Positions 36,827-64,000 of a stretch of 64,000 nt of DNA are shown piece after piece. A model generated the notes under the pieces. It did no database searches. It saw nothing but the letters and a program-made list of their open reading frames with translations, and was not told the origin of the DNA. How positions within the stretch are numbered: position 1 is the stretch's first letter; every line of letters starts with the position of its first letter. The DNA is taken from IMG/VR virus record IMGVR_UViG_3300026473_000477, positions 15,615 through 79,614 of that record. One strand, given 5' to 3'. Source of the DNA: a virus. The position numbers and the translations under genes are program-made.

Positions 36827-36863
36827 TAAAATCTCCAATAGTTATTATTATATAACTCATATT

Positions 36864-42518: not shown

Positions 42519-42557
42519 ATTCCTCCTTTTATGTTTTTGGGATAAACTATTATACCA

Positions 42558-52765: not shown

Positions 52766-53341
52766 TTAAAGTTCTCCACTAGTTGTTTGTTGTGTTGTTG
52801 GTTTATTCTTACGAAATCCACTTCTTGGAATTTCTTCAGATTGCTCTGGTTTAGCTGCTTCTATTCGAGTTTCCGTTGGCTTAGATCTTTGTTGGGAAGT
52901 CTCAATAGTTGGAGTTTCTAAATCTCCTTCAGTCATATCCTCAGTTGGAATAGAGAATGTTTGGATTAAGGCATACTTAAGAGCAGCAGAAAGTGCTTTA
53001 TTAGTAGCTTTGTCTCCAGAGTCTAGCCCTTCAGCTGGAATTGGACCTACTGTAATTTTAGAGCCATCTTCAGCAAAAAAATCATATTCCATCATAATTG
53101 TTACATGTTTATCAATACCAGCTTTTCCAGATCCTCTAGTAACTTCATTAAGTTCATGCTGTTCATTAACGCAACGTGGAGCCATAAAAACTCCATGTTT
53201 AGTCAAAGCTGGGTAAAGATTGTTAACAAACTGATCAATTCCTCGGAATTTAAATCCTTGAGCTTGGTTCTTTTGGTCTTTTCCGACACTTCCAATATCT
53301 TTCATGACATCAGACATTTTCTTATAAATTAAACCACTCAT
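52766..53341 (-). CDS. erf: ERF-family ssDNA annealing protein
   Basis: FKFRGID, GLDSGDKATNKALSAALKYAL...IPT. Confidence 0.85.
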   Translation of the reverse strand: MSGLIYKKMSDVMKDIGSVGKDQKNQAQGFKFRGIDQFVNNLYPALTKHGVFMAPRCVNEQHELNEVTRGSGKAGIDKHVTIMMEYDFFAEDGSKITVGPIPAEGLDSGDKATNKALSAALKYALIQTFSIPTEDMTEGDLETPTIETSQQRSKPTETRIEAAKPEQSEEIPRSGFRKNKPTTQQTTSGEL

Positions 53342-54095: not shown

Positions 54096-54644
54096 TCATA
54101 GTCCCTTATTTTCCAATAATGCAATTAATATCGATAAATTAATGCCTTCTTGATCTTTTTCTGACCTTGCTGACTCTGCTGCTGACCTTGCTGCTGACTC
54201 TGCTGACCATGCTGCTGACCTTGCTGACCCTGCTGCTGACCCTGCTGCTGACCATGCTGCTGACCTTGCTGACCCTGCTGCTGACCCTGCTGCTGACCAT
54301 GCTGCTGACCATGCTGCTGACTCTGCTGACCATGCTGCTGATTTACCTAACTCGCCATTAATTACCTTTTTTACAACTTCTAAACAATCTCTAACTCTTG
54401 TGTCGTTTGGAAATTCTCTCTCAAAATTATCTAAAACAAATTCAGCACATTCTACAGACCAGATTTGTAATGTTTTTAGTGGAGCAACTTTAGTAGCAAG
54501 CCAAATTTTATTATTATAACTAATATCTTCCAAAGCTAACAAATCTGACAACTTACCATTAAAGTCTGGATGTTTATTCTCAAAATCTAAAATACCATCT
54601 TCACATGGATTTAATCTTCTGATAAATTTAGAATTAATTTTCAT
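54096..54644 (-). CDS. Helical protein with SAA(W/R/G/E) repeat tract
   Basis: FPNDTRVR followed by tandem AWSA/AGSA/ARSA repeats. Confidence 0.7.
   Translation of the reverse strand: MKINSKFIRRLNPCEDGILDFENKHPDFNGKLSDLLALEDISYNNKIWLATKVAPLKTLQIWSVECAEFVLDNFEREFPNDTRVRDCLEVVKKVINGELGKSAAWSAESAAWSAAWSAAGSAAGSARSAAWSAAGSAAGSARSAAWSAESAARSAAESARSEKDQEGINLSILIALLENKGL
54160..54341. repeat. 9/12-bp coding tandem repeat (GCTGCTGACxxx)
   Basis: Visible tandem array encoding Ser-Ala-Ala-X. Confidence 0.9.
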
Positions 54645-54661
54645 AAAGCTTCCTTTTTGAT

Positions 54662-54691
54662 ATTATACATCATTTTCTAATAATTTGTCAA
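54662..54691 (-). promoter_or_regulatory. sigma70 promoter inside mini-gene tail
   Basis: TTGACA-N18-TATAAT. Confidence 0.75.
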
Positions 54692-54899
54692 GTTGCCAAA
54701 GTTTGACTAATGTTGGATGTACTTTTCCAATAAACATGCCGTCATAATAGTCAATAGATATCTTTGTGTACTGGTCAAACTCATGATCATAACATTCAAT
54801 TATTCTGTCATCAATTGACATAATAGTATCTATACGTACTTTGCCAAATAAACCATACATCACAACATCACCAGCTTTAAGGTTTAGTTTCGAGTCCAC
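54663..54899 (-). CDS. Mini-protein family member (promoter-type tail)
   Basis: LKAGDV...GKVHPTLVKLWQLDK. Confidence 0.85.
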   Translation of the reverse strand: MDSKLNLKAGDVVMYGLFGKVRIDTIMSIDDRIIECYDHEFDQYTKISIDYYDGMFIGKVHPTLVKLWQLDKLLENDV

Positions 54900-55857
54900 T
54901 CATACTTCCTTCCCAACAATATTTATAATATGGACACTTTTTCCCAAATGAATAGCATTGTTTTTTGTCGCTCTTTCCCGAAAACTCGCCACTCTTAATC
55001 AATTTTACCAAATTATCAACTCTTTGGAAAGCTTTTTGAAATGATTCCTCAGAAATCTTGTCTTTTATAATAGTTATCCTAATTTTTGGCTCTCTTTTTC
55101 TGACTTCCTTTTCGACAACAACATAACTTGCGTCCAAAATCTCTTCACTTTCACAATAGATTGCCAATTGGAGAGATGTACTTACAGAATCCTCTTTATA
55201 AGCCTTACTTGACGTTTTGTTATCACAGATATATACTTTGTCAGGCTCGTCAATAAAACTGCATTTAAAGTCAATTTTGCCAGTAATCTCATCTTCTCCA
55301 TTATTTAGAGTAATTGTCTTTTGGATGTCAAACACTTCAGAAATTTTTGGGATGACTTCTTTTTCATAAGCATCAATTAGCAATAATCCTTTATTGTAAA
55401 GAGAAAGCCAATTCATGTAATTATATGTTTTCTGATCTTGTAAACTTAGCTTTTTGCCTTTTTCAATGACATCTCGACATTCTTGGTAAAATGACAAGAA
55501 ATCATAAATTTCTCCATCAAATTCTTTTAACTTGGAATAATCCTCCTCTGTCAGCAAATCAGGACTGAAATCTTTCTTGGAGTAATCGCACCATTCATTA
55601 GTGGCAAGATTTTGATCTCTGGAAACTTTCATGTTTTCGTCAAAAACCTCTCGCCAAGATTTTACCATTAGTAACTTTTCATCATCAGTTAAGTTCTTCT
55701 TTTTTTCCAATAGAAGTCTGGAAAAAGCTTCATCTGTCGCATTTCCGAAGAACAATGGGGAGTCAATCTTTTTTGGTCTAATTCTTTTATTATAATGTAA
55801 ATCGAACTTTTTGGGACATTCTTCGTAAGTTGTAAGAGATGAATATGAAAATTTCAT
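54877..55857 (-). CDS. PD-(D/E)XK (RecB/Cas4-like) exonuclease with Cys cluster
   Basis: SYSSL..YEECP, GKID, DNKT, QLAIY, C...CPY..YC. Confidence 0.85.
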   Translation of the reverse strand: MKFSYSSLTTYEECPKKFDLHYNKRIRPKKIDSPLFFGNATDEAFSRLLLEKKKNLTDDEKLLMVKSWREVFDENMKVSRDQNLATNEWCDYSKKDFSPDLLTEEDYSKLKEFDGEIYDFLSFYQECRDVIEKGKKLSLQDQKTYNYMNWLSLYNKGLLLIDAYEKEVIPKISEVFDIQKTITLNNGEDEITGKIDFKCSFIDEPDKVYICDNKTSSKAYKEDSVSTSLQLAIYCESEEILDASYVVVEKEVRKREPKIRITIIKDKISEESFQKAFQRVDNLVKLIKSGEFSGKSDKKQCYSFGKKCPYYKYCWEGSMSGLETKP

Positions 55858-56064
55858 TTTTTATCCTTAATTTGATCTTCTAGTCGCCAAAGTTTTACTA
55901 AAATCGGATTGACTTTACTAATAAAAGTATGATTATAATAACTACTTTCTACCAAAATCACAATATCAAGATAAAAATCATAACAAAGAATTTCACCGTG
56001 TTTATTTATTTCTAGAATCATATCCATATATTATTACATCTCCAACTTTTATGTCAATCGCCAT
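55854..56064 (-). pseudogene. Frameshifted mini-protein family member (not in ORF track)
   Basis: MAIDIKVGDVIIYG in one frame (stop at 56002); MDMILE...SKVNPILVKLWRLED in another (55854-56027). Confidence 0.75.
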
Positions 56065-56255
56065 AATTTCCCCAATATTGGATGTATTCTCATTGTATTT
56101 CCAGATGACACTCTGATTATATCATAGTTTTCTACAAGTTCGCAAACATATTTGTCTTCTTCTTTGTGGTAATTTAAAACTATAGCTAAACCTTTGATAT
56201 TTTTGTATAAGTCGTGCTGGACATAAACTAAGTCGCCAATTTTGATGTTACTCAT
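56049..56255 (-). CDS. Mini-protein family member
   Basis: IKIGDL...RIHPILGKLWRL. Confidence 0.85.
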   Translation of the reverse strand: MSNIKIGDLVYVQHDLYKNIKGLAIVLNYHKEEDKYVCELVENYDIIRVSSGNTMRIHPILGKLWRLT

Positions 56256-56472
56256 CCAATCTCCAGAGCTTTACAAGAATTGGATGAACTTTAGTATAAT
56301 AACTACCTTCTTTTGTAATATAGTCTAACCTTAATTCATTCGGCTCTGTAGTCCAATATTCGTGTTTAAACAAGTATCTAAACTTTTCAGAATCAACTCG
56401 GACTATCTTTTCAATTTGAAAATTACCATTTCCTTTATCATATAAATAATAATCGCCAACTTTTACTTCCAT
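56248..56472 (-). CDS. Mini-protein family member (SD-type tail; likely start 56472)
   Basis: MEVKVGDY...KVHPILVKLWRLDE. Confidence 0.85.
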   Translation of the reverse strand: MEVKVGDYYLYDKGNGNFQIEKIVRVDSEKFRYLFKHEYWTTEPNELRLDYITKEGSYYTKVHPILVKLWRLDE

Positions 56473-56473
56473 A

Positions 56474-57145
56474 CTAAAAATCCAGTCCAATTCCAACGCT
56501 TCCAAAGCCTTGAACATCAATTCCAATTGCACCATTAATGTCACCAAAACTTCTCTGGTAAAGTAATCCTGGAACAATTTCTGTACTACTTCTAATAACA
56601 GTCGAGTTATTTCCATTATTTACAGTTAATCCTGTTCGCTTTTGTGTTGCCAGTAAGGAAATTCTATTAAGTTTTCTTACAGTTTTTGTTACAACAATTG
56701 TTTTAGTAACAATTTTTTCCTCTGGAGCTTCACTGATAATAGTTTTACTTTCACCTTCATCAGACTTTACAATAACAACAACTCGTCTATTATTGGCGTG
56801 ATCTAAATCACTAGTCCCGAGATTTACCAATTGAGTCTCTCCATAACCATTGGAAATAATCTCAGCTTTTGTCCCAAGTTTGACAAGAACTCTAGCCGCT
56901 GACTCAGCTCTCTTTTGGCTTAAATTTAGGTTATAAAGAGCGTTTCCTCGTTGATCAGCGTGACCCTCAACAATGACTTCAGAAACCTTTTTACCGCTAA
57001 TTTTAGAGCTGTAAACCTCCTCCAATCTTGCGATTAGTTCTTCAGTTGGAATATCACTTCCAGTTTCAAAATGTGCAGCGTTAGACACTGACAAGAAGAA
57101 AATTAAAGTAAAGAGAAGTAGGGCAAATCTTAATAAAATATTCAT
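56474..57145 (-). CDS. Exported OmpA-like peptidoglycan-binding protein with C-terminal beta strands
   Basis: Signal peptide; EGHADQRG..YNLNLSQKRA...GYGE...NRRV; ends VGIGLDF. Confidence 0.85.
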   Translation of the reverse strand: MNILLRFALLLFTLIFFLSVSNAAHFETGSDIPTEELIARLEEVYSSKISGKKVSEVIVEGHADQRGNALYNLNLSQKRAESAARVLVKLGTKAEIISNGYGETQLVNLGTSDLDHANNRRVVVIVKSDEGESKTIISEAPEEKIVTKTIVVTKTVRKLNRISLLATQKRTGLTVNNGNNSTVIRSSTEIVPGLLYQRSFGDINGAIGIDVQGFGSVGIGLDF

Positions 57146-57163
57146 ATAATTCCTTTTAGTTTA

Positions 57164-58117
57164 TTATAACCTGACAACCTGACCATTAGCAATCTTAAAT
57201 CTACAGTTTTGTCCATCAGTTGTGGTATATTCAGTATTCTCAGCAAGTTCGCCAAGGTAAACATTTTTCACAGTTGGAATAGAAACTGTTTGAATATTTT
57301 GAGAAACATCGAGGTTTACAATTTCCTTAAACTTTACAGTTCCAAGACAGATTTGAACTCCAAGAGCGTTTAGTCCGAGAAGTCCGTCACAATATTGAAC
57401 TTTAATTGGGGAATTGTTTGGAGTAAGTCCTGTAAATGAAACTTGACTAGTGACAGATTCTACCATAACAGAATAAAATTTTCCATTAATCTTTTGTAGC
57501 TTTTCTTTTCCACAAGGAGATTCGACAACAACTTTATTGGCGGTAATTTGGCTCTGTAAATTTACCAATGACAATTGAATGTTCGCCACTTGTTGGTTTA
57601 AAGCTGTAATTGATCCAATGTTTGAGTTGACATCAGTTCTCAAAAGGTTAATTTCAAAGTTAGCGTTTGCCAATTGAGTATTTAAATCTCTAATGTCAGA
57701 CTTTAGCTTTTCAATTTCAGAATCTTGGAGAGAATTAATAAGTTCTGTGTTGGAAACTCTTGACTGTAAGTCTTGAATTTGTCCAACAATGAGATTTGTT
57801 TGGCTTGTTAAATTGTTAATTTGTGTTGTGTGAGCATTAACTTGACTTCTTAAAGCGTCTAAATCGGCTTGTGAAGCGTTGTCTTGAGCTTCCAAGTCGG
57901 CAATCCTTTGGTCGAGATTCTGACCTTCTAAAACTAAAATGCGAGCTTCTAGAGCGTCAATTCTGGAGTTAATTGCTTCTTGTAAAGAGACAATCAGTAA
58001 GTTTAGAATGTCAATTTCCTTTTTGATTTCAGAGTTATTGTAACGCTCTACAGTAACTTTCTGAGTTTTTCCACAAGAAATAAATAATAGTAATGGTAAA
58101 AGTAATAAGTATTTCAT
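57164..58117 (-). CDS. Coiled-coil lipoprotein
   Basis: LLFISC lipobox, long heptad region, Cys-containing C-terminal domain. Confidence 0.75.
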   Translation of the reverse strand: MKYLLLLPLLLFISCGKTQKVTVERYNNSEIKKEIDILNLLIVSLQEAINSRIDALEARILVLEGQNLDQRIADLEAQDNASQADLDALRSQVNAHTTQINNLTSQTNLIVGQIQDLQSRVSNTELINSLQDSEIEKLKSDIRDLNTQLANANFEINLLRTDVNSNIGSITALNQQVANIQLSLVNLQSQITANKVVVESPCGKEKLQKINGKFYSVMVESVTSQVSFTGLTPNNSPIKVQYCDGLLGLNALGVQICLGTVKFKEIVNLDVSQNIQTVSIPTVKNVYLGELAENTEYTTTDGQNCRFKIANGQVVRL

Positions 58118-58142
58118 TTATTCTCCTTTTAAGAATAGTTAT

Positions 58143-58171
58143 ATTTTACTCGTTTTCAAACAGCTTGTCAA
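58143..58171 (-). promoter_or_regulatory. sigma70 promoter inside mini-gene tail
   Basis: TTGACA-N17-TAAAAT. Confidence 0.8.
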
Positions 58172-58385
58172 GTTGCCAGAGTTTTACTAATGTTGGATGA
58201 ATTTTAATTAAACTATTGCTAACAATATATCGACAAAAGCTTTCTAATGGTGCTTCGCTGATACCAACATAGGACATACAAGAAAGTTTATACTTATATA
58301 AAACAGCATCACTTCTTGTGCTGATAATCTTATCAATATCTCCATGTAATGAATCGATATAATAATCGCCAACTTTTATTTCCAT
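58146..58385 (-). CDS. Mini-protein family member (promoter-type tail)
   Basis: MEIKVGDY...KIHPTLVKLWQLDK. Confidence 0.85.
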   Translation of the reverse strand: MEIKVGDYYIDSLHGDIDKIISTRSDAVLYKYKLSCMSYVGISEAPLESFCRYIVSNSLIKIHPTLVKLWQLDKLFENE

Positions 58386-59614
58386 TATTTCTTCTCATCT
58401 GGAATATAAATTACTTTACCGAAATCTCCAGGTGGCTTTTGTTTTCCAACCCCAATCCACAGAAAAGGAATTTTTGGGTCAACTGGAATGTCTGACGAGT
58501 CGAAGTCCCCAAAATAAAAGATAGCGTCTGGATTATGCTTTTTAGCTTCGTCGATTGCTGGTTGATAAGCTGTTCCTCCTCGACCTTTAAATGTTGGAGT
58601 TTTCTTTGGTTCAAACTTATAAACAGATTGAGCTTTACAGTCAGCTTCAATGACAACAATTTCGACACCATTTTTATGTAAACTTACAAGCTCTCCCCAA
58701 CATTGAGCTAAGTGATAATCTGACATACTGCCACTAGTGTCAACACAATAAACAATCTTTTGCTTTCTCTCAAATTTCTTACCGGGAGAGTAAATCCCAT
58801 ATCTTCTGTGTCTTTTAGTTCTAGTACCAATTTGCTCTGATTTTACAGAATTAGCTTGAAAACGTCTAAGCTCTTTTTTCCAATTAACTTTAGACTTAAA
58901 AAGCTCCTCGAGTTTTGCCACTATTTCTGATGGCAAATTTCCAATCCCTCCAGATCTTTCAGCAGCTTCTTTGGCAACTTGTTTAACGACTTCCTCAATT
59001 CCTTCCTTGGAATCTGTTGACGATCCCCATTTATCATGACTGTCGGTCGATGTTTTTGGGAGCTTGTCACCATGTTCTTCTGTAAACTTAAGTAGTCTTC
59101 CGTAAATATGCTCTGCTGATTTGTTCTCTTCAATGTCAACATGATTTTGATCGTATTCTCTCATTTTATTATTTAACTTTTCTATCGATACTCCTCCAAT
59201 ATCTGCCAATTCTTTCAGATCTCCAGTATTAATTGTGGCATCAGTGGCTAAGTTAAACAAATGATGTTTCTGTGCGGTGTCAACTCCAATGTCTTTATAT
59301 CTTGGAATATGATGGCAAAGAATGTGCAAAACTTCATGCTTTAATGCTTTTGCAACAAGAGAAACATCGCCTCCAAGTGACATTGATGTATATTCTGTGT
59401 CATTTCCATCTTTGTCCTTAGTCTTGATTACTTTACCTTTTTCCATTACAAAGTCAGGATTGATGTATAAATTGATTTTATCAGTGACAGAAACCTCCAT
59501 AGTTGGAACTTCTTTAGTGTAAATTTGGCGCATTTGATTGATAAAATGTGCGTAATATCTTTGCTTATCTAACAATCTCATAATAGCAAACGAAACGACT
59601 TCTCTAGCTTCCAT
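58385..59614 (-). CDS. Metallopeptidase-VWA protein (DUF2201-like)
   Basis: HEVLH...NLATD, VNWK, MIDAS DTSGSM, GRGGT. Confidence 0.85.
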   Translation of the reverse strand: MEAREVVSFAIMRLLDKQRYYAHFINQMRQIYTKEVPTMEVSVTDKINLYINPDFVMEKGKVIKTKDKDGNDTEYTSMSLGGDVSLVAKALKHEVLHILCHHIPRYKDIGVDTAQKHHLFNLATDATINTGDLKELADIGGVSIEKLNNKMREYDQNHVDIEENKSAEHIYGRLLKFTEEHGDKLPKTSTDSHDKWGSSTDSKEGIEEVVKQVAKEAAERSGGIGNLPSEIVAKLEELFKSKVNWKKELRRFQANSVKSEQIGTRTKRHRRYGIYSPGKKFERKQKIVYCVDTSGSMSDYHLAQCWGELVSLHKNGVEIVVIEADCKAQSVYKFEPKKTPTFKGRGGTAYQPAIDEAKKHNPDAIFYFGDFDSSDIPVDPKIPFLWIGVGKQKPPGDFGKVIYIPDEKK

Positions 59615-59631
59615 AATTTTCTCCTTAATCT

Positions 59632-59660
59632 AGTTTACTATTTTTCAAACAGCTTGTCAA
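59632..59660 (-). promoter_or_regulatory. sigma70 promoter inside mini-gene tail
   Basis: TTGACA-N17-TAAACT. Confidence 0.8.
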
Positions 59661-59868
59661 GTTGCCAGAGTTTGACTAGTGTTGGATGAATTTTAAATGT
59701 ATTTTCAGTATTATAATCATGTAAACGGAAGAAAAGATGTCTAATATAGTCATTTATCGGTGTTATAGCAGAATAATATACGTTCCCATCTTTTATTTCT
59801 ATAACTTTTTCTATTGTATTAACATTTTGAAATTCATAAAAATAATAATCCCCAACTTTTACTTCCAT
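59638..59868 (-). CDS. Mini-protein family member (promoter-type tail; likely start 59868)
   Basis: MEVKVGDY...KIHPTLVKLWQLDK. Confidence 0.85.
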   Translation of the reverse strand: MEVKVGDYYFYEFQNVNTIEKVIEIKDGNVYYSAITPINDYIRHLFFRLHDYNTENTFKIHPTLVKLWQLDKLFEK

Positions 59869-59877
59869 AATTTCCCC

Positions 59878-59909
59878 AAAAAACTCTCCCAACTTTTACA
59901 TTGGGAGAG
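59878..59909 (-). terminator. Intrinsic terminator after AAA ATPase
   Basis: CTCTCCCAA-TGTAAAAG-TTGGGAGAG-TTTTTT. Confidence 0.75.
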
Positions 59910-59946
59910 AAAAGATTGATTAAAAAGGAGTGTAAATATCAACCTT

Positions 59947-61059
59947 TTATTTAACTGATCTGTCGTAATCAACTAAGTCTAAAAAGAACTTCTCATTATT
60001 GTCAAGCATTTTCATATACTCTGGCATAGAAATTAATCTAGGCTTTTGCTGATGAGTTTTGAGACATAATAAAGCCATTTCTACTGGCAAGATTTTGAGG
60101 AAATTGAGAAAACTTTCCATTGTTTTCGAGTCAACATCCTTTTTCTCTTCAAAACTTTTCATCATGACATCAACAATCTCTTCATTAATCTTGGAAACGA
60201 CATCCGATCTGATAATTCCATCCTCATTTACAAAAAGCTTTTTAATTCTTGGTACACTTTCTTCAAACTTAGTAAGAACTTCTTCTCCAGTCAAGTCTTT
60301 TTCCATTGACTTCTCAAAAGATGTCAAGGCGATTGCTGCTGAAGTTCCCACTAGTCCCATTAGCACTTCTGTTTTAATGTCTTCAGTTAAATCTTTATCT
60401 GACATTAGTTTTTGTGCTGACTCCCATGATCTACGAGAGTGGGACACAAAGTCCAATGAAAACTCTTCCAATGAGTTATCATCGACCAATGTGCTATCAG
60501 ATCTTAAAAAAGATGTGATAATATTATTTTTCCCATATTTTTCTTCCATGTATGAGAAAAACTCTTGTTTAGATGGTTCAAATTTAATGTGTAGAAATCT
60601 ATCTCCCAATGCTTTATTTGCGTTAATATCAATTAAAGCTGGATAATCTGCTGTGTCTGGGTTCATTGCTGTGACAATGAATGAGTTAGCTGGCAACTCA
60701 TAACTTCCAAATCTTTTTTCCAAGATCAATTGGAATAAAATTCCTCTAATTTCTTTCGGACAATGAGAAAGCTCGTCAAGGAAAATAATTGAGTTCGGAG
60801 TTACTGGCAAAAGTTTTGTCTTAATAAAGTCAATAGCGATTGCGTTTCCTTTTTCATCCCTGACAAATTCTGGCAAACCTTGAATGTCGCCAGAGTCGGA
60901 ATATTGACCTAAAAACAACGGATAAAAGCCCATGCCAAGTGAATCAGCCAATTGTTTAACAACCGATGACTTACCAAGTCCATGTTTTCCGATTAAGTTC
61001 GGGACTAGTCCGTGTTTTGTTGCCAGTTTGATTGCTTTTAGTGTTTTTTGAATATCCAT
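59947..61059 (-). CDS. MoxR-like AAA+ ATPase
   Basis: Walker A GKHGLGKS, Walker B IFLDE, AMNP, ALGDRF, SRRSW. Confidence 0.85.
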   Translation of the reverse strand: MDIQKTLKAIKLATKHGLVPNLIGKHGLGKSSVVKQLADSLGMGFYPLFLGQYSDSGDIQGLPEFVRDEKGNAIAIDFIKTKLLPVTPNSIIFLDELSHCPKEIRGILFQLILEKRFGSYELPANSFIVTAMNPDTADYPALIDINANKALGDRFLHIKFEPSKQEFFSYMEEKYGKNNIITSFLRSDSTLVDDNSLEEFSLDFVSHSRRSWESAQKLMSDKDLTEDIKTEVLMGLVGTSAAIALTSFEKSMEKDLTGEEVLTKFEESVPRIKKLFVNEDGIIRSDVVSKINEEIVDVMMKSFEEKKDVDSKTMESFLNFLKILPVEMALLCLKTHQQKPRLISMPEYMKMLDNNEKFFLDLVDYDRSVK

Positions 61060-61087
61060 AAATTCTCCTTTTTTGAATATTTGTTAT

Positions 61088-61116
61088 ATTTTATTTGTTT
61101 TCAAATAATTTGTCAA
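61088..61116 (-). promoter_or_regulatory. sigma70 promoter inside mini-gene tail
   Basis: TTGACA-N17-TAAAAT. Confidence 0.8.
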
Positions 61117-61327
61117 GTCCATAAAGTTTTACTAATATTGGATGAATTTTAAAAGTAGTATCTCTTTCGTAAGTTTCTAAATGACAAGATGTATATTTAA
61201 TTTTTTCCATAGATTCTGTAAAGTAAGAATAGCTAACCTTATCATTGTCTATTGCCACAATCTTTTCTACATATTGAAATCCAAAAAACCCATCATAAAA
61301 ATAATAATCACCTACTTTAATTTCCAT
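61091..61327 (-). CDS. Mini-protein family member (promoter-type tail)
   Basis: MEIKVGDY...KIHPILVKLYGLDK. Confidence 0.85.
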   Translation of the reverse strand: MEIKVGDYYFYDGFFGFQYVEKIVAIDNDKVSYSYFTESMEKIKYTSCHLETYERDTTFKIHPILVKLYGLDKLFENK

Positions 61328-61838: not shown

Positions 61839-62183
61839 TTAAAGCTCCTTATAATGTTTTTCGATAATGTTAGCAATTTCGTTAAATGAAGTTCCATGGT
61901 CGTTTAATAGAACTAAAGAAATGCAACCTAAAGATCCTTTATTTGTTTTTATACCTGACCACTCCATAACCTCTTCAGGTAATACATCATGTTTACCAAT
62001 AGCCCCATAGATGGTAAGATTTTCATCATTAACATTACACTCAACCTTACCATCAACCAAAGCTAGGTCACACAAAACACCTAAACAACAATGTTTACCA
62101 TTTTCGTTTAAACGATATTTTCCTTGCTCAAATTCACCAGATCTCAAAGCCTTTACCCATTTTTTCATTATTGATTTTTTCAT
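61839..62183 (-). CDS. Hypothetical phage protein
   Basis: KWVKALRSG..QG...CCLGVLC...LND...F.EIA.IIE. Confidence 0.65.
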   Translation of the reverse strand: MKKSIMKKWVKALRSGEFEQGKYRLNENGKHCCLGVLCDLALVDGKVECNVNDENLTIYGAIGKHDVLPEEVMEWSGIKTNKGSLGCISLVLLNDHGTSFNEIANIIEKHYKEL

Positions 62184-62199: not shown

Positions 62200-62228
62200 A
62201 TTTTACTATTATTTATGTCCTGTGTCAA
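62200..62228 (-). promoter_or_regulatory. sigma70 early promoter
   Basis: TTGACA-N17-TAAAAT, then AAGGAG SD and ATG. Confidence 0.8.
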
Positions 62229-62299
62229 TTTATTAATTTTCCTCGCTCCAAAATATCCAACAATAAACAAAGTGATAACATAAACTAAAATTAAATGTT

Positions 62300-62737
62300 T
62301 CATAGACCTACCTCTTCTAACATCTCTACTAATAAATCTTTATCATTTTGACGTTGGTTAACTATTCCCCAGTCTTTTTCTAATTTATTAATATCTTCCA
62401 TTACTTTAGCGAGACCGGAAAGATCTACTTTATCACCATTTAAAAGCGTTTTTGCCCTGATTTTAAGGTCTTCTAATCTATTATCATTTGGAAAATCAGC
62501 TTTAAAATCATCAAAAATATTTTTACTTGACACTTCTTTCCATTTTTTCACTATCTCTGGAGAAATGCATTCAGCTAAATAATATAAGTTTATACGAGTT
62601 GGAATTTTTAAATTAACCGGCTTAGTTTTAAGCAATTTGGATAATTTTCCATCAAAATTTGGATAAAGATTATCACAAAGTCTATTAAAGTTTGAATCTA
62701 AACCGTAATCTAAAATACTTTTACCGTTGATTTTCAT
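62300..62737 (-). CDS. Paralog of 54096-54644 lacking the repeat tract
   Basis: Shared MKIN, PxFxGKLSxLL, FPNDxR and terminal LExxGL. Confidence 0.65.
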   Translation of the reverse strand: MKINGKSILDYGLDSNFNRLCDNLYPNFDGKLSKLLKTKPVNLKIPTRINLYYLAECISPEIVKKWKEVSSKNIFDDFKADFPNDNRLEDLKIRAKTLLNGDKVDLSGLAKVMEDINKLEKDWGIVNQRQNDKDLLVEMLEEVGL

Positions 62738-63493: not shown

Positions 63494-63543
63494 AAAGTCC
63501 CCTTTCCTATATCTTACTTTAAATTACCTATTGTGTCAATTTA

Positions 63544-64000
63544 TTATTTTCCCATCTCGATCATTAACATTCTTTCATAACTTAATTTTATAATTTGTTT
63601 TGTCAATTCAAAATCAACCTCACTAATTTCATTTTTAAAATCAGAATATTGATAATTATCGATTTCCATTGGATTAAGATCTTTACATCCAACTTTTAAT
63701 GCAGTTAGTGTTAATGTTATATTAAATTTAAAACCTAGTAAATTTATAACTTGATGTTCTTTTTCTATTTCATCATTATCACGAACTAAAGCATTACCAT
63801 AAACCCTAGCATTACCATAAACCTGAGCATTACCATAAACCTGAGCATTACCATAAACCCAAGCATTACCATAAACACTGGCATTACCATAAACACTGGC
63901 ATTACCACAAACCCTAGCATTACCATAAACCTGAGCATTACCATAAACCCAAGCATTACCATAAACACTGGCATTACCATAAACACTAGCATTACCACAA
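63544..64000 (-). CDS. Hexapeptide (VYGNAx)n repeat beta-helix protein, 5' end outside the window
   Basis: 18-bp tandem repeat reads VYGNAR/Q/W/S, continuing into VRDNDEIEKEHQVINLLGFKFNITLT..KVGC...EMGK*; this frame differs from the ORF-track call. Confidence 0.85.
   Translation of the reverse strand, partial: CGNASVYGNASVYGNAWVYGNAQVYGNARVCGNASVYGNASVYGNAWVYGNAQVYGNAQVYGNARVYGNALVRDNDEIEKEHQVINLLGFKFNITLTLTALKVGCKDLNPMEIDNYQYSDFKNEISEVDFELTKQIIKLSYERMLMIEMGK

What the first reader, a model, noticed from the sequence alone, without database searches (positions are those of the whole stretch)
54662..61116. A second tail class encodes a full sigma70 promoter instead (L-D-K = cTT GAC Aa)
Seen: the four copies ending (WQ/YG)LDKL(F/L)E all use CTT GAC AA, creating TTGACA, and each has a correctly spaced -10 box at or next to the stop codon: N18-TATAAT (54662-54691), N17-TAAAAT (58143-58171), N17-TAAACT (59632-59660) and N17-TAAAAT (61088-61116). 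A short leader with an AAGGA(G) SD and the next gene follows each. The Asp codon is GAC in these four but GAT in the nine SD-type copies. The two divergent copies also end in promoters (TTGACT-N17-TATAAT at 36847; TTGCAC-N17-TATAAT at 42549, before nrdB). Inference: the same peptide motif is dual-coded as either a translational or a transcriptional signal, making these genes portable regulatory cassettes.
Basis: partly seen in the sequence, partly recalled or inferred. Interest (0 to 1): 0.85.

Follow-up and report, generated by a model that had tools for sequence, protein, structure and literature searches.

The report
Promoter built into small-gene tails
In an uncultured 80-kb river phage, four copies of a 16-member family of tiny genes end in codons that also spell a near-consensus bacterial promoter for the next gene, and the same conserved tail is a point where related strains have recombined; no transcript start has yet been measured.

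Summary
Four paralogues on the minus strand (54663-54899, 58146-58385, 59638-59868, 61091-61327) end in ..L-D-K-L-(F/L)-E.., coded CTT GAC AAR. This gives TTGACA, then N17/18, then TATAAT, TAAAAT or TAAACT over or beside the stop codon, then a 17-28 nt stretch with an SD, then the next gene.

It is unlikely to be chance:
- Sense-strand sigma70-like sites scoring at least 11/12 number 13, against 1.2 expected.
- These sites cluster 12-45 nt before gene starts.
- Unrelated junctions (57192, 62228, 63539) have the same compact layout.
- Across the four copies the hexamers vary at 2 of 12 positions, against 19 of 29 in spacer and leader.
- A -10 box occurs in 4/4 GAC copies and 2/12 other copies.

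A 98%-identical river contig (L001) keeps the promoter. It has two tandem family genes where the window has one chimera, and the crossover lies inside the tail motif.

The promoter reading is therefore well supported by sequence but not shown by any transcript start. The "portable cassette" idea has one natural example. The closest known system is the PeSL cassette of T4-type phages, but these tails lie in coding sequence and have no stem-loop. I class it as a new variant of a known kind. The scan has noted PeSL-like cassettes on other DNA, but not this coding-embedded form.

The parts
54663..54899 (-). Family copy with a promoter-type tail (..HPTLVKLWQLDKLLENDV*). Its body is 62% identical to the SD-type copy 42971.
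54662..54691 (-). TTGACA-N18-TATAAT (12/12). The stop TAA lies inside the -10, and the ATG of the Imm5-like gene is 17 nt downstream (54644). Predicted transcript start is near 54655.
   Evidence: conserved in L001 with 2 spacer changes
58146..58385 (-). Family copy with a promoter-type tail (..WQLDKLFENE*).
58143..58171 (-). TTGACA-N17-TAAAAT (11/12). The stop TAA forms the first three bases of the -10, and the ATG of the lipoprotein gene is 25 nt downstream (58117). Predicted start is near 58136.
59638..59868 (-). Family copy with a promoter-type tail (..WQLDKLFEK*). An alternative TTG start lies at 59892, inside the hairpin.
59632..59660 (-). TTGACA-N17-TAAACT (10/12). The real stop is TAG, and the following TAA is kept as the start of the -10. 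The ATG of the DUF2201/VWA gene is 17 nt downstream (59614). Predicted start is near 59625.
59884..59909 (-). Intrinsic-terminator-like hairpin (10-bp stem followed by U6) between the MoxR gene and copy 59638. It is the only such hairpin next to a promoter-type copy.
   Evidence: z = -3.6
61091..61327 (-). Family copy with a promoter-type tail (..LYGLDKLFENK*).
61088..61116 (-). TTGACA-N17-TAAAAT (11/12). The stop TAA forms the first three bases of the -10, and the ATG of the MoxR AAA gene is 28 nt downstream (61059). Predicted start is near 61081.
54096..54644 (-). Cargo gene behind 54663: an Imm5-like protein with a Gln-rich repeat tail.
57164..58117 (-). Cargo gene behind 58146: a coiled-coil lipoprotein (signal ..LFISC).
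58385..59614 (-). Cargo gene behind 59638: DUF2201 metallopeptidase/VWA-like protein.
59947..61059 (-). Cargo gene behind 61091: MoxR-type AAA ATPase.
57163..57192 (-). Comparator outside the family: TTGCTA-N18-TATAAT, with the lipoprotein gene's stop TAA inside the -10, 17 nt before the OmpA-like gene.
62200..62228 (-). Comparator: intergenic TTGACA-N17-TAAAAT, 16 nt before the ATG at 62183. Its -10 and leader closely resemble those of 59638.
52766..53341 (-). Erf-like single-strand annealing protein. With the PD-(D/E)XK nuclease at 54877-55857 it is a candidate engine for short-homology recombination at the tails.

Best explanation
The last 8-9 codons plus the stop codon of four paralogues of a phage-specific family of small beta-barrel proteins (about 75 aa) also encode a housekeeping-sigma (sigma70-type) promoter. 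Leu-Asp-Lys, written CTT GAC AAR, gives the -35. The remaining tail codons (L-F/L-E-x) give a 17-18 nt spacer. The TAA stop region gives the -10. Host RNA polymerase would start about 7 nt further on, producing a very short leader (about 10-21 nt) that begins at or just before the AAGGAG ribosome site of the next, unrelated gene. From the His-Pro codons of the tail to the next ATG is a repeated DNA module of roughly 90 nt. Because it is repeated, it is also a substrate for short-homology recombination, plausibly by the phage's own Erf-like annealing protein and PD-(D/E)XK nuclease. Such recombination fuses, deletes or swaps small-gene and cargo units in frame. Shown here: the sequence anatomy, the enrichment, the conservation pattern and one natural recombinant. 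Inferred: that transcription starts there, and which enzyme does the recombining.
For: (1) Exact hexamers and spacing in all four copies. (2) Sense-strand sites scoring at least 11/12 number 13, against 1.16 +/- 1.11 in shuffles and 2 antisense. With the three family sites in that count removed, 10 remain. (3) 14 of 36 sense sites scoring at least 10/12 end 12-45 nt before a gene start, whereas only 7.65% of positions qualify. Non-family junctions (30266, 36875, 57192, 62228, 63539, and three sites left of the window) share the same layout. (4) CTT is 21.5% of Leu codons and GAC 25% of Asp codons, yet both are used in 4/4 copies. The SD-type copies use ctt, ttg or tta for Leu, and always GAT for Asp. 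(5) Across the four copies the hexamers vary at 2/12 positions, with T-12, A-11 and T-7 invariant. The spacer varies at 9/17 positions and the 12 nt after the -10 at 10/12 (Fisher p = 0.005). (6) The -10 stays at N17/18 even though the tail length and the stop arrangement differ. In 59638 the true stop is an upstream TAG and the now-redundant TAA is kept. (7) A -10-like box lies at the equivalent distance in 4/4 GAC copies and 2/12 other copies (one-sided Fisher p about 0.008, my own calculation from those counts). (8) The protein bodies are only 19-40% identical, and 54663 is closest (62%) to an SD-type copy, so tail class does not follow body relatedness. (9) L001, 98% identical, keeps TTGACA-N18-TATAAT. 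The only 2 differences in 260 nt both fall in the spacer. (10) A strong terminator-like hairpin lies upstream of copy 59638, and the tail site is the only promoter-like site between it and the VWA gene. (11) For recombination: L001 has two tandem family genes where the window has one chimera. The difference is 211 nt and the crossover lies within CATCCAA of the tail motif. The phage encodes Erf-like and PD-(D/E)XK proteins, and Erf-type recombinases are efficient on short or diverged homology (PMC3945230).
Against: No transcript 5' end was observed. The only RNA data are assembled metatranscriptome contigs, which cannot show starts, and one of them (59739-60975) runs across the hairpin. The host, and so its sigma specificity, is unknown. 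The four tails are related by descent or gene conversion: 58146 and 59638 share even rare codons (aag ctg), so there are only about three independent variants. Compared with the protein-constrained upstream coding flank, the hexamers are not significantly better conserved (p = 0.14). In 54663 and 59638 the predicted leader leaves the SD at the very 5' end of the mRNA, which is unusually short. The -10 of 59638 matches only 4/6. AT-rich stop-codon regions give -10-like hexamers fairly often (2/12 in the other copies).
Confidence: 0.6

Rival explanations
1. Inherited coincidence. One ancestral tail happened to read CTT GAC AAR before an AT-rich stop region. Duplication, protein-level selection on the C-terminal helix and gene conversion then spread and kept it. 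The genes would be transcribed only as part of long operons from upstream promoters, and the promoter-like sites would be silent or negligible.
For: The tails share descent, including rare synonymous codons. About 15 sites scoring at least 10/12 are expected by chance in 36 kb. The hexamers are not better conserved than the coding flank (p = 0.14). The leaders are very short. An RNA contig crosses the hairpin, so read-through transcription may exist.
Against: The -10 persists through three different stop arrangements, including one case where the TAA is no longer the stop. The non-coding stretch after the -10 has drifted (10/12 positions variable) while the hexamers have not. The same layout recurs at unrelated junctions, and the enrichment remains without the family sites. 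Both hexamer-forming codons are minority codons in 4/4 copies.
Confidence: 0.2
2. Recombination handle first. The conserved tail DNA would be kept mainly as a homology block for modular shuffling of small-gene and cargo units, with promoter and SD content as secondary passengers of whichever tail variant spread.
For: The L001/window chimera has its crossover inside the motif. Strain contigs lose homology 13-20 nt upstream of the tail motif of copies 48971 and 50263 (coordinates), and P0016 has a replaced body on the same tail. An Erf-like protein and a nuclease are encoded nearby. Mosaic tails occur: 58146 shares its -35 side with 59638 and its -10 and leader with 61091.
Against: Synonymous variation within the motif across the 16 copies points to protein-level rather than DNA-level constraint, and it lowers the homology available for recombination. 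The observed crossover used only about 10 identical bases. A handle role would not explain the invariant hexamers at correct spacing. This rival is compatible with the best explanation rather than exclusive of it.
Confidence: 0.12
3. The sites are recognised by something other than the host's primary sigma, for example a phage-encoded or alternative sigma, or a DNA-binding regulator for which TTGACA is an operator half-site.
For: The host is unknown. Some leader and upstream blocks are repeated between sites: TAAAATGAATTAAG occurs at 62228 and left of the window, and GGAAAAT(T)AATAAATTGACACA at 62228 and 63539. This could mean an extended recognition motif.
Against: The match is to the canonical -35, spacer and -10. 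No phage sigma or RNA polymerase was found among the proteins scanned, although the whole genome was not annotated.
Confidence: 0.05

Closest known systems
PeSL (promoter-early stem-loop) regulatory cassettes of T4-type phages (Arbiol et al. 2010, PMC2839356; Comeau et al. 2014, PMC4122927)
   Same: Both are repeated short modules that hold a strong sigma70-like promoter ending in the SD and start codon of the next, often orphan, gene. Both are concentrated in variable regions, and in both, indels between close relatives have their ends in the repeat (here).
   Different: PeSLs are intergenic: the upstream stop lies before the -35, there is an AT-rich upstream tract, and a stem-loop is always present. 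Here the -35 and the spacer are codons of a conserved protein helix and the stop codon is part of the -10. The tails have no stem-loop (z about 0), and the repeat is the 3' end of a paralogous gene family. The phage is not T4-like: its family-B polymerase is only about 24% identical to any deposited phage.
Promoters embedded in the 3' end of an upstream gene, and the Pc cassette promoter inside the intI1 coding sequence of class 1 integrons (from my own knowledge, not checked here)
   Same: A promoter and a protein share the same bases, so promoter hexamers constrain codon choice. In integrons the embedded promoter expresses whatever cassette is recombined next to it.
   Different: Pc faces away from intI1 and there is one per element. 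Here the promoter is co-directional, sits in a multi-copy family, and alternates with a second tail form that encodes the SD and ATG for translational coupling.
Phage morons (autonomous promoter-gene-terminator units; general knowledge)
   Same: Both are small accessory genes with their own expression signals, inserted between other genes.
   Different: In a moron the promoter precedes its own gene and the terminator follows it. Here the promoter lies at the end of the small gene and serves the next gene. In the one case with a hairpin, the order is terminator, small gene, promoter.

Membership tests
sigma70-type (primary sigma) promoter | -35 hexamer close to TTGACA | tested here: met
   Exact TTGACA in 4/4 copies.
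sigma70-type (primary sigma) promoter | Spacer of 17 +/- 1 nt and a -10 hexamer with T-12, A-11 and T-7 | tested here: met
   N18 TATAAT, N17 TAAAAT (twice) and N17 TAAACT. The key positions are invariant.
sigma70-type (primary sigma) promoter | More frequent than chance, on the sense strand, and placed just upstream of genes | tested here: met
   13 sites against 1.16 expected and 2 antisense. 14/36 sites lie 12-45 nt before a start, where 7.65% of positions qualify.
sigma70-type (primary sigma) promoter | Transcription starts about 7 nt after the -10 | not testable with these tools
   Only assembled RNA contigs were available, and these cannot show starts.
sigma70-type (primary sigma) promoter | The host polymerase recognises this consensus | tested here: inconclusive
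   Host unknown. nrdB is about 40% identical to Alphaproteobacteria and the OmpA-like protein is weakly similar to Flavobacteriia and others. Strong SD use argues, by inference, against a Bacteroidota host.
PeSL cassette | Strong sigma70-like promoter followed by the SD and start of the next gene | tested here: met
PeSL cassette | Stable stem-loop (terminator or attenuator) within the motif | tested here: not met
   The four tails fold no better than shuffles (z from -0.57 to +0.36). Only copy 59638 has a hairpin, and it lies upstream of the gene, not in the motif.
PeSL cassette | Intergenic position, with the upstream stop codon before the -35 and an AT-rich upstream tract | tested here: not met
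   The -35 and the spacer are coding, and the stop lies in or at the -10.
PeSL cassette | Indels between close relatives end in the repeat | tested here: met
   One case: the 211-nt difference between L001 and the window, with its crossover in the tail motif.
Small-protein paralogue family of this phage (K-V-G-D ... HPxLVKLW(R/Q)LD) | Full-length profile match that includes the C-terminal motif | tested here: met
   The four copies score E about 1e-24 to 1e-29 against the family profile. The claimed 'divergent copies' 36864 and 42558 do not meet this.

The most novel reading that the evidence does not exclude
The family is a set of 'expression adaptor' genes. Each copy's conserved C-terminal helix codons would supply one of two interchangeable outputs for whatever gene lies behind it: SD plus ATG (cttGATGaa) or a sigma70 -35 with a stop-codon -10 (cTTGACAaa). 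The two forms differ by very few base changes. The fixed gene ends would then serve as in-frame recombination handles for the phage's Erf/exonuclease system. Together this would amount to a gene-capture and expression system that needs no site-specific recombinase, functionally like an integron but built from a protein-coding repeat.
Probability: 0.25. Interest if true: 0.8.

Novelty: new variant of a known kind. Interest (0 to 1): 0.55.

Why it matters
If the sites fire, a phage has solved two problems with one stretch of sequence. It keeps a compact genome by writing a promoter into the helix-coding tail and stop codon of a gene. It also makes that tail a standard connector, so any cargo gene recombined behind it is expressed at once.

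This would extend the PeSL idea of mobile regulatory cassettes from intergenic DNA into coding sequence. It would also give a clean natural case of codon choice (CTT GAC against TTR GAT) being set by a transcription or translation signal for the neighbouring gene.

There is a practical point for annotating uncultured phage genomes: operon boundaries may be hidden inside small ORFs.

Tried and rejected
- **Phage collection:** megablast and tblastn gave no near relative. The polymerase matched only Salinibacter and Nostoc phages at about 24% identity, and the small protein matched nothing.
- **Viral contigs:** scans by peptide pattern and by the DNA motif gave only chance matches, with no family members in L002-L017.
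- **Protein databases:** the profile found only this phage lineage, both in the 5.8-billion-protein search and in the exhaustive search of 1.84 billion representatives. The three long extra hits (P0020-P0022) are unrelated repeat proteins.
- The 79,079-nt, 7,092-nt and 3,564-nt relatives could therefore not be fetched, and the GAC / -10 co-variation could be tested only on the 16 paralogues plus L001.
- **RNA data:** these are assembled contigs and show no starts. RNA contigs cover patches of 52.0-63.2 kb, with none in 44-49.3 kb or 54.7-56.0 kb. Holes at this depth prove nothing, so I do not use them as support.
- **Stem-loops in the tails:** none found.
- **Protein function:** the AlphaFold model (pLDDT 88.6) is a five-strand SH3/Tudor/KOW-like barrel with a C-terminal helix. 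Foldseek and the Atlas give only weak, generic matches, and Pfam and PHROGs give none.
- **Host inference** from nrdB and the OmpA-like protein was inconclusive.
- **Conservation test:** hexamers against the upstream coding flank were not significantly different (p = 0.14).

Full report
**Context.** The window is bases 15615-79614 of a 79.6-kb IMG/VR virus record, linear and about 95% complete. It has no near relative among deposited phages. DNA runs and one metatranscriptome run from rivers hold it. Genes in 28-64 kb lie on the minus strand.

A profile built from the four flagged genes finds 16 paralogues of about 75 aa, all inside the window (alignment A1). They share an N-terminal K-V-G-D strand, a very variable middle and the tail K(I/V)HPxLVKLW(R/Q)LD. 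The family is absent from Pfam and PHROGs. It has no relatives outside this phage lineage in 5.8 billion proteins, or in an exhaustive scan of 1.84 billion representatives. An AlphaFold model (pLDDT 88.6) gives a five-strand SH3/Tudor-like barrel followed by a C-terminal helix at residues 64-77, which is exactly the stretch in question.

The four copies and their sites are:

| Copy (minus strand) | Promoter-like site | Match |
|---|---|---|
| 54663-54899 | 54691-54662, TTGACA-N18-TATAAT | 12/12 |
| 58146-58385 | 58171-58143, TTGACA-N17-TAAAAT | 11/12 |
| 59638-59868 | 59660-59632, TTGACA-N17-TAAACT | 10/12 |
| 61091-61327 | 61116-61088, TTGACA-N17-TAAAAT | 11/12 |

All four end ..L-D-K-L-(F/L)-E.., with Leu-Asp-Lys written CTT GAC AAR. 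The stop codon is inside, at the start of, or immediately before the -10. An AAGGA(G) site and the ATG of an unrelated gene follow 17-28 nt after the -10. Those genes are an Imm5-like protein, a coiled-coil lipoprotein, a DUF2201/VWA protein and a MoxR ATPase.

Nine other copies end W-R-L-D-E, written tGG AGa ytN GAT Gaa. This reads GGAG-N5-ATG and opens the next gene, and Asp is GAT in all nine. In the two copies whose tail does not carry that start (55854, 56049), Arg is CGA rather than AGA, so no GGAG is formed.

The genes carrying them are not demonstrable family members.

**Is it more than chance?**
- On the sense strand of 28001-64000 there are 13 sites scoring at least 11/12. Dinucleotide shuffles give 1.16 +/- 1.11, and the antisense strand has 2. 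Ten remain after removing the three family sites in that count.
- Of the 36 sense sites scoring at least 10/12, 14 have their -10 ending 12-45 nt before a gene start, where 7.65% of positions qualify. One more qualifies if the ATG 20 nt after the 36847 box is taken as that gene's start.
- The same compact layout (promoter, 16-29 nt, SD inside that stretch, ATG) appears at junctions unrelated to the family: 30266, 36875, 57192, 62228, 63539 and three sites left of the window. At 57192 the stop TAA of the lipoprotein gene lies inside TATAAT.

The phage therefore clearly uses sigma70-type promoters, often overlapping the end of the upstream gene, and the four tails fit that class exactly.

**Is the tail promoter maintained, or merely inherited?**
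- CTT is 21.5% of Leu codons and GAC 25% of Asp codons here, yet both are used in 4/4 copies. The SD-type copies use ctt, ttg or tta for that Leu.
- Among the four copies the 12 hexamer positions vary at 2, with T-12, A-11 and T-7 fixed. The spacer varies at 9/17 positions and the 12 nt after the -10 at 10/12 (p = 0.005). Against the protein-constrained coding flank the difference is not significant (p = 0.14).
- The -10 keeps its distance through three different coding arrangements. In 59638 the true stop is an upstream TAG, and the following TAA survives as the start of TAAACT.
- A -10-like box at the equivalent distance is present in 4/4 GAC copies and 2/12 other copies (p about 0.008 by my calculation).

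Against this, the tails are not independent. 58146 and 59638 share even the rare aag ctg codons, and 58146 and 61091 share TAAAATATAAC and much of the leader. There are thus about three variants, and gene conversion is evident. The protein bodies are only 19-40% identical, and 54663 is closest (62%) to an SD-type copy. Tail class therefore does not follow body relatedness.

**Related strain.** One river contig, L001 (3,878 nt), is 98% identical to 58126-54460. It keeps TTGACA-N18-TATAAT before the Imm5-like gene, and the only two differences in 260 nt both fall in the spacer. Between the nuclease gene and that promoter it has two tandem family genes. The first has an SD-type tail (..WRLDEH) that starts the second. 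The second has a quite different body and the promoter-type tail.

The window has a single gene made of the first body and the second tail. The difference is 211 nt, and the switch lies within the shared CATCCAA of the His-Pro codons. This is a natural in-frame recombinant at the conserved tail.

Strain contigs also lose homology 13-20 nt upstream of the tail motif of copies 48971 and 50263. A variant protein, P0016, has a replaced body on the same tail. The phage encodes an Erf-like annealing protein and a PD-(D/E)XK nuclease close by. Erf-type recombinases work well on short or diverged homology (PMC3945230). That these proteins act on the tails is my inference.

**Transcription evidence.** A strong terminator-like hairpin (59909-59884, z = -3.6) follows the MoxR gene. 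The only promoter-like site between it and the VWA gene is the tail of copy 59638. This gives that site an obvious job, but it leaves the small gene itself dependent on read-through.

A riverine metatranscriptome holds contigs 100% identical to the window, and one crosses the hairpin. Contigs cannot show starts, and the uneven cover at depth 1-9 is not evidence. The tails contain no stem-loop. In 54663 and 59638 the predicted start leaves the SD at the very 5' end of the mRNA. That is unusually short, although the same is true of the comparator sites 57192, 62228 and 63539. The host is unknown.

**Comparison with known systems.** The nearest described system is the PeSL cassette of T4-type phages. 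These are repeated sigma70 promoter-plus-stem-loop modules that end at the next gene's SD and ATG, and they mediate modular shuffling (PMC2839356, PMC4122927). The present modules share the promoter, the SD and ATG end, the repetition and an indel ending in the repeat. They fail two defining features: they have no stem-loop, and they are coding rather than intergenic. They work like PeSLs but are not PeSLs. The scan has noted PeSL-like cassettes on other DNA, but not a coding-embedded form.

**Verdict.** The promoter reading is well supported by sequence statistics, architecture and conservation (confidence about 0.6), but it is untested at the RNA level. Portability is supported by one recombinant. 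I class it as a new variant of a known kind and of moderate interest.

Noticed in passing
window 55854-56075 (-); same in L001 2050-2273: Copy 55854 is split by a frameshift. Its N-terminal part (MAIDIKVGDVIIYGYDSRNK*) is read from an ATG formed by the Leu-Trp codons (ttATGg) of copy 56049's tail. The rest (MDMILEINKHG...) is in another frame. Copy 56049's tail, WRLT*, also spells TTGACA in a different frame (cga TTG ACA taa), with AATAAT or TAATAT 16 or 18 nt on and an ATG only 2 nt after that.
   Followed up: partly
window 62298-62731: A DNA contig of a related strain (run X2) joins 62297 to 62732, skipping 434 nt with 7 nt of shared sequence at the joint. Gene 62300-62737 is therefore a strain-variable cassette, just upstream of the promoter at 62228.
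   Followed up: no
window 62200-62250, 63511-63560 and genome position about 718 (14,896 before the window): Promoter modules outside the family are also repeated. GGAAAAT(T)AATAAATTGACACA occurs at both 62228 and 63539. TAAAATGAATTAAG occurs at 62228 and at the site left of the window. The -10 and leader of 62228 closely resemble those of copy 59638.
   Followed up: partly
window 54135-54349: A 9/12-nt tandem repeat (TGCTGACCxTGCTGC on the plus strand) forms a Gln-rich low-complexity C-terminus of the Imm5-like gene 54096-54644.
   Followed up: no
window 49041 and 50320: Contigs of related strains stop matching 13-20 nt upstream of the His-Pro tail motif of copies 48971 and 50263. A variant protein (P0016) has a different body on an identical tail, so the bodies are replaced between strains while tails and downstream genes stay.
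   Followed up: partly
window 52766-53341 and 54877-55857: An Erf-like single-strand annealing protein and a PD-(D/E)XK (Cas4-like) nuclease lie among the family copies. They form a likely phage recombination module.
   Followed up: partly
window 55854-56270, tails of copies 55854 and 56049: The Arg codon in W-R-L is AGA or AGG in the copies whose tail supplies GGAG-N5-ATG to the next gene, but CGA in the two copies that do not. This is consistent with selection on the SD rather than on the residue.
   Followed up: partly
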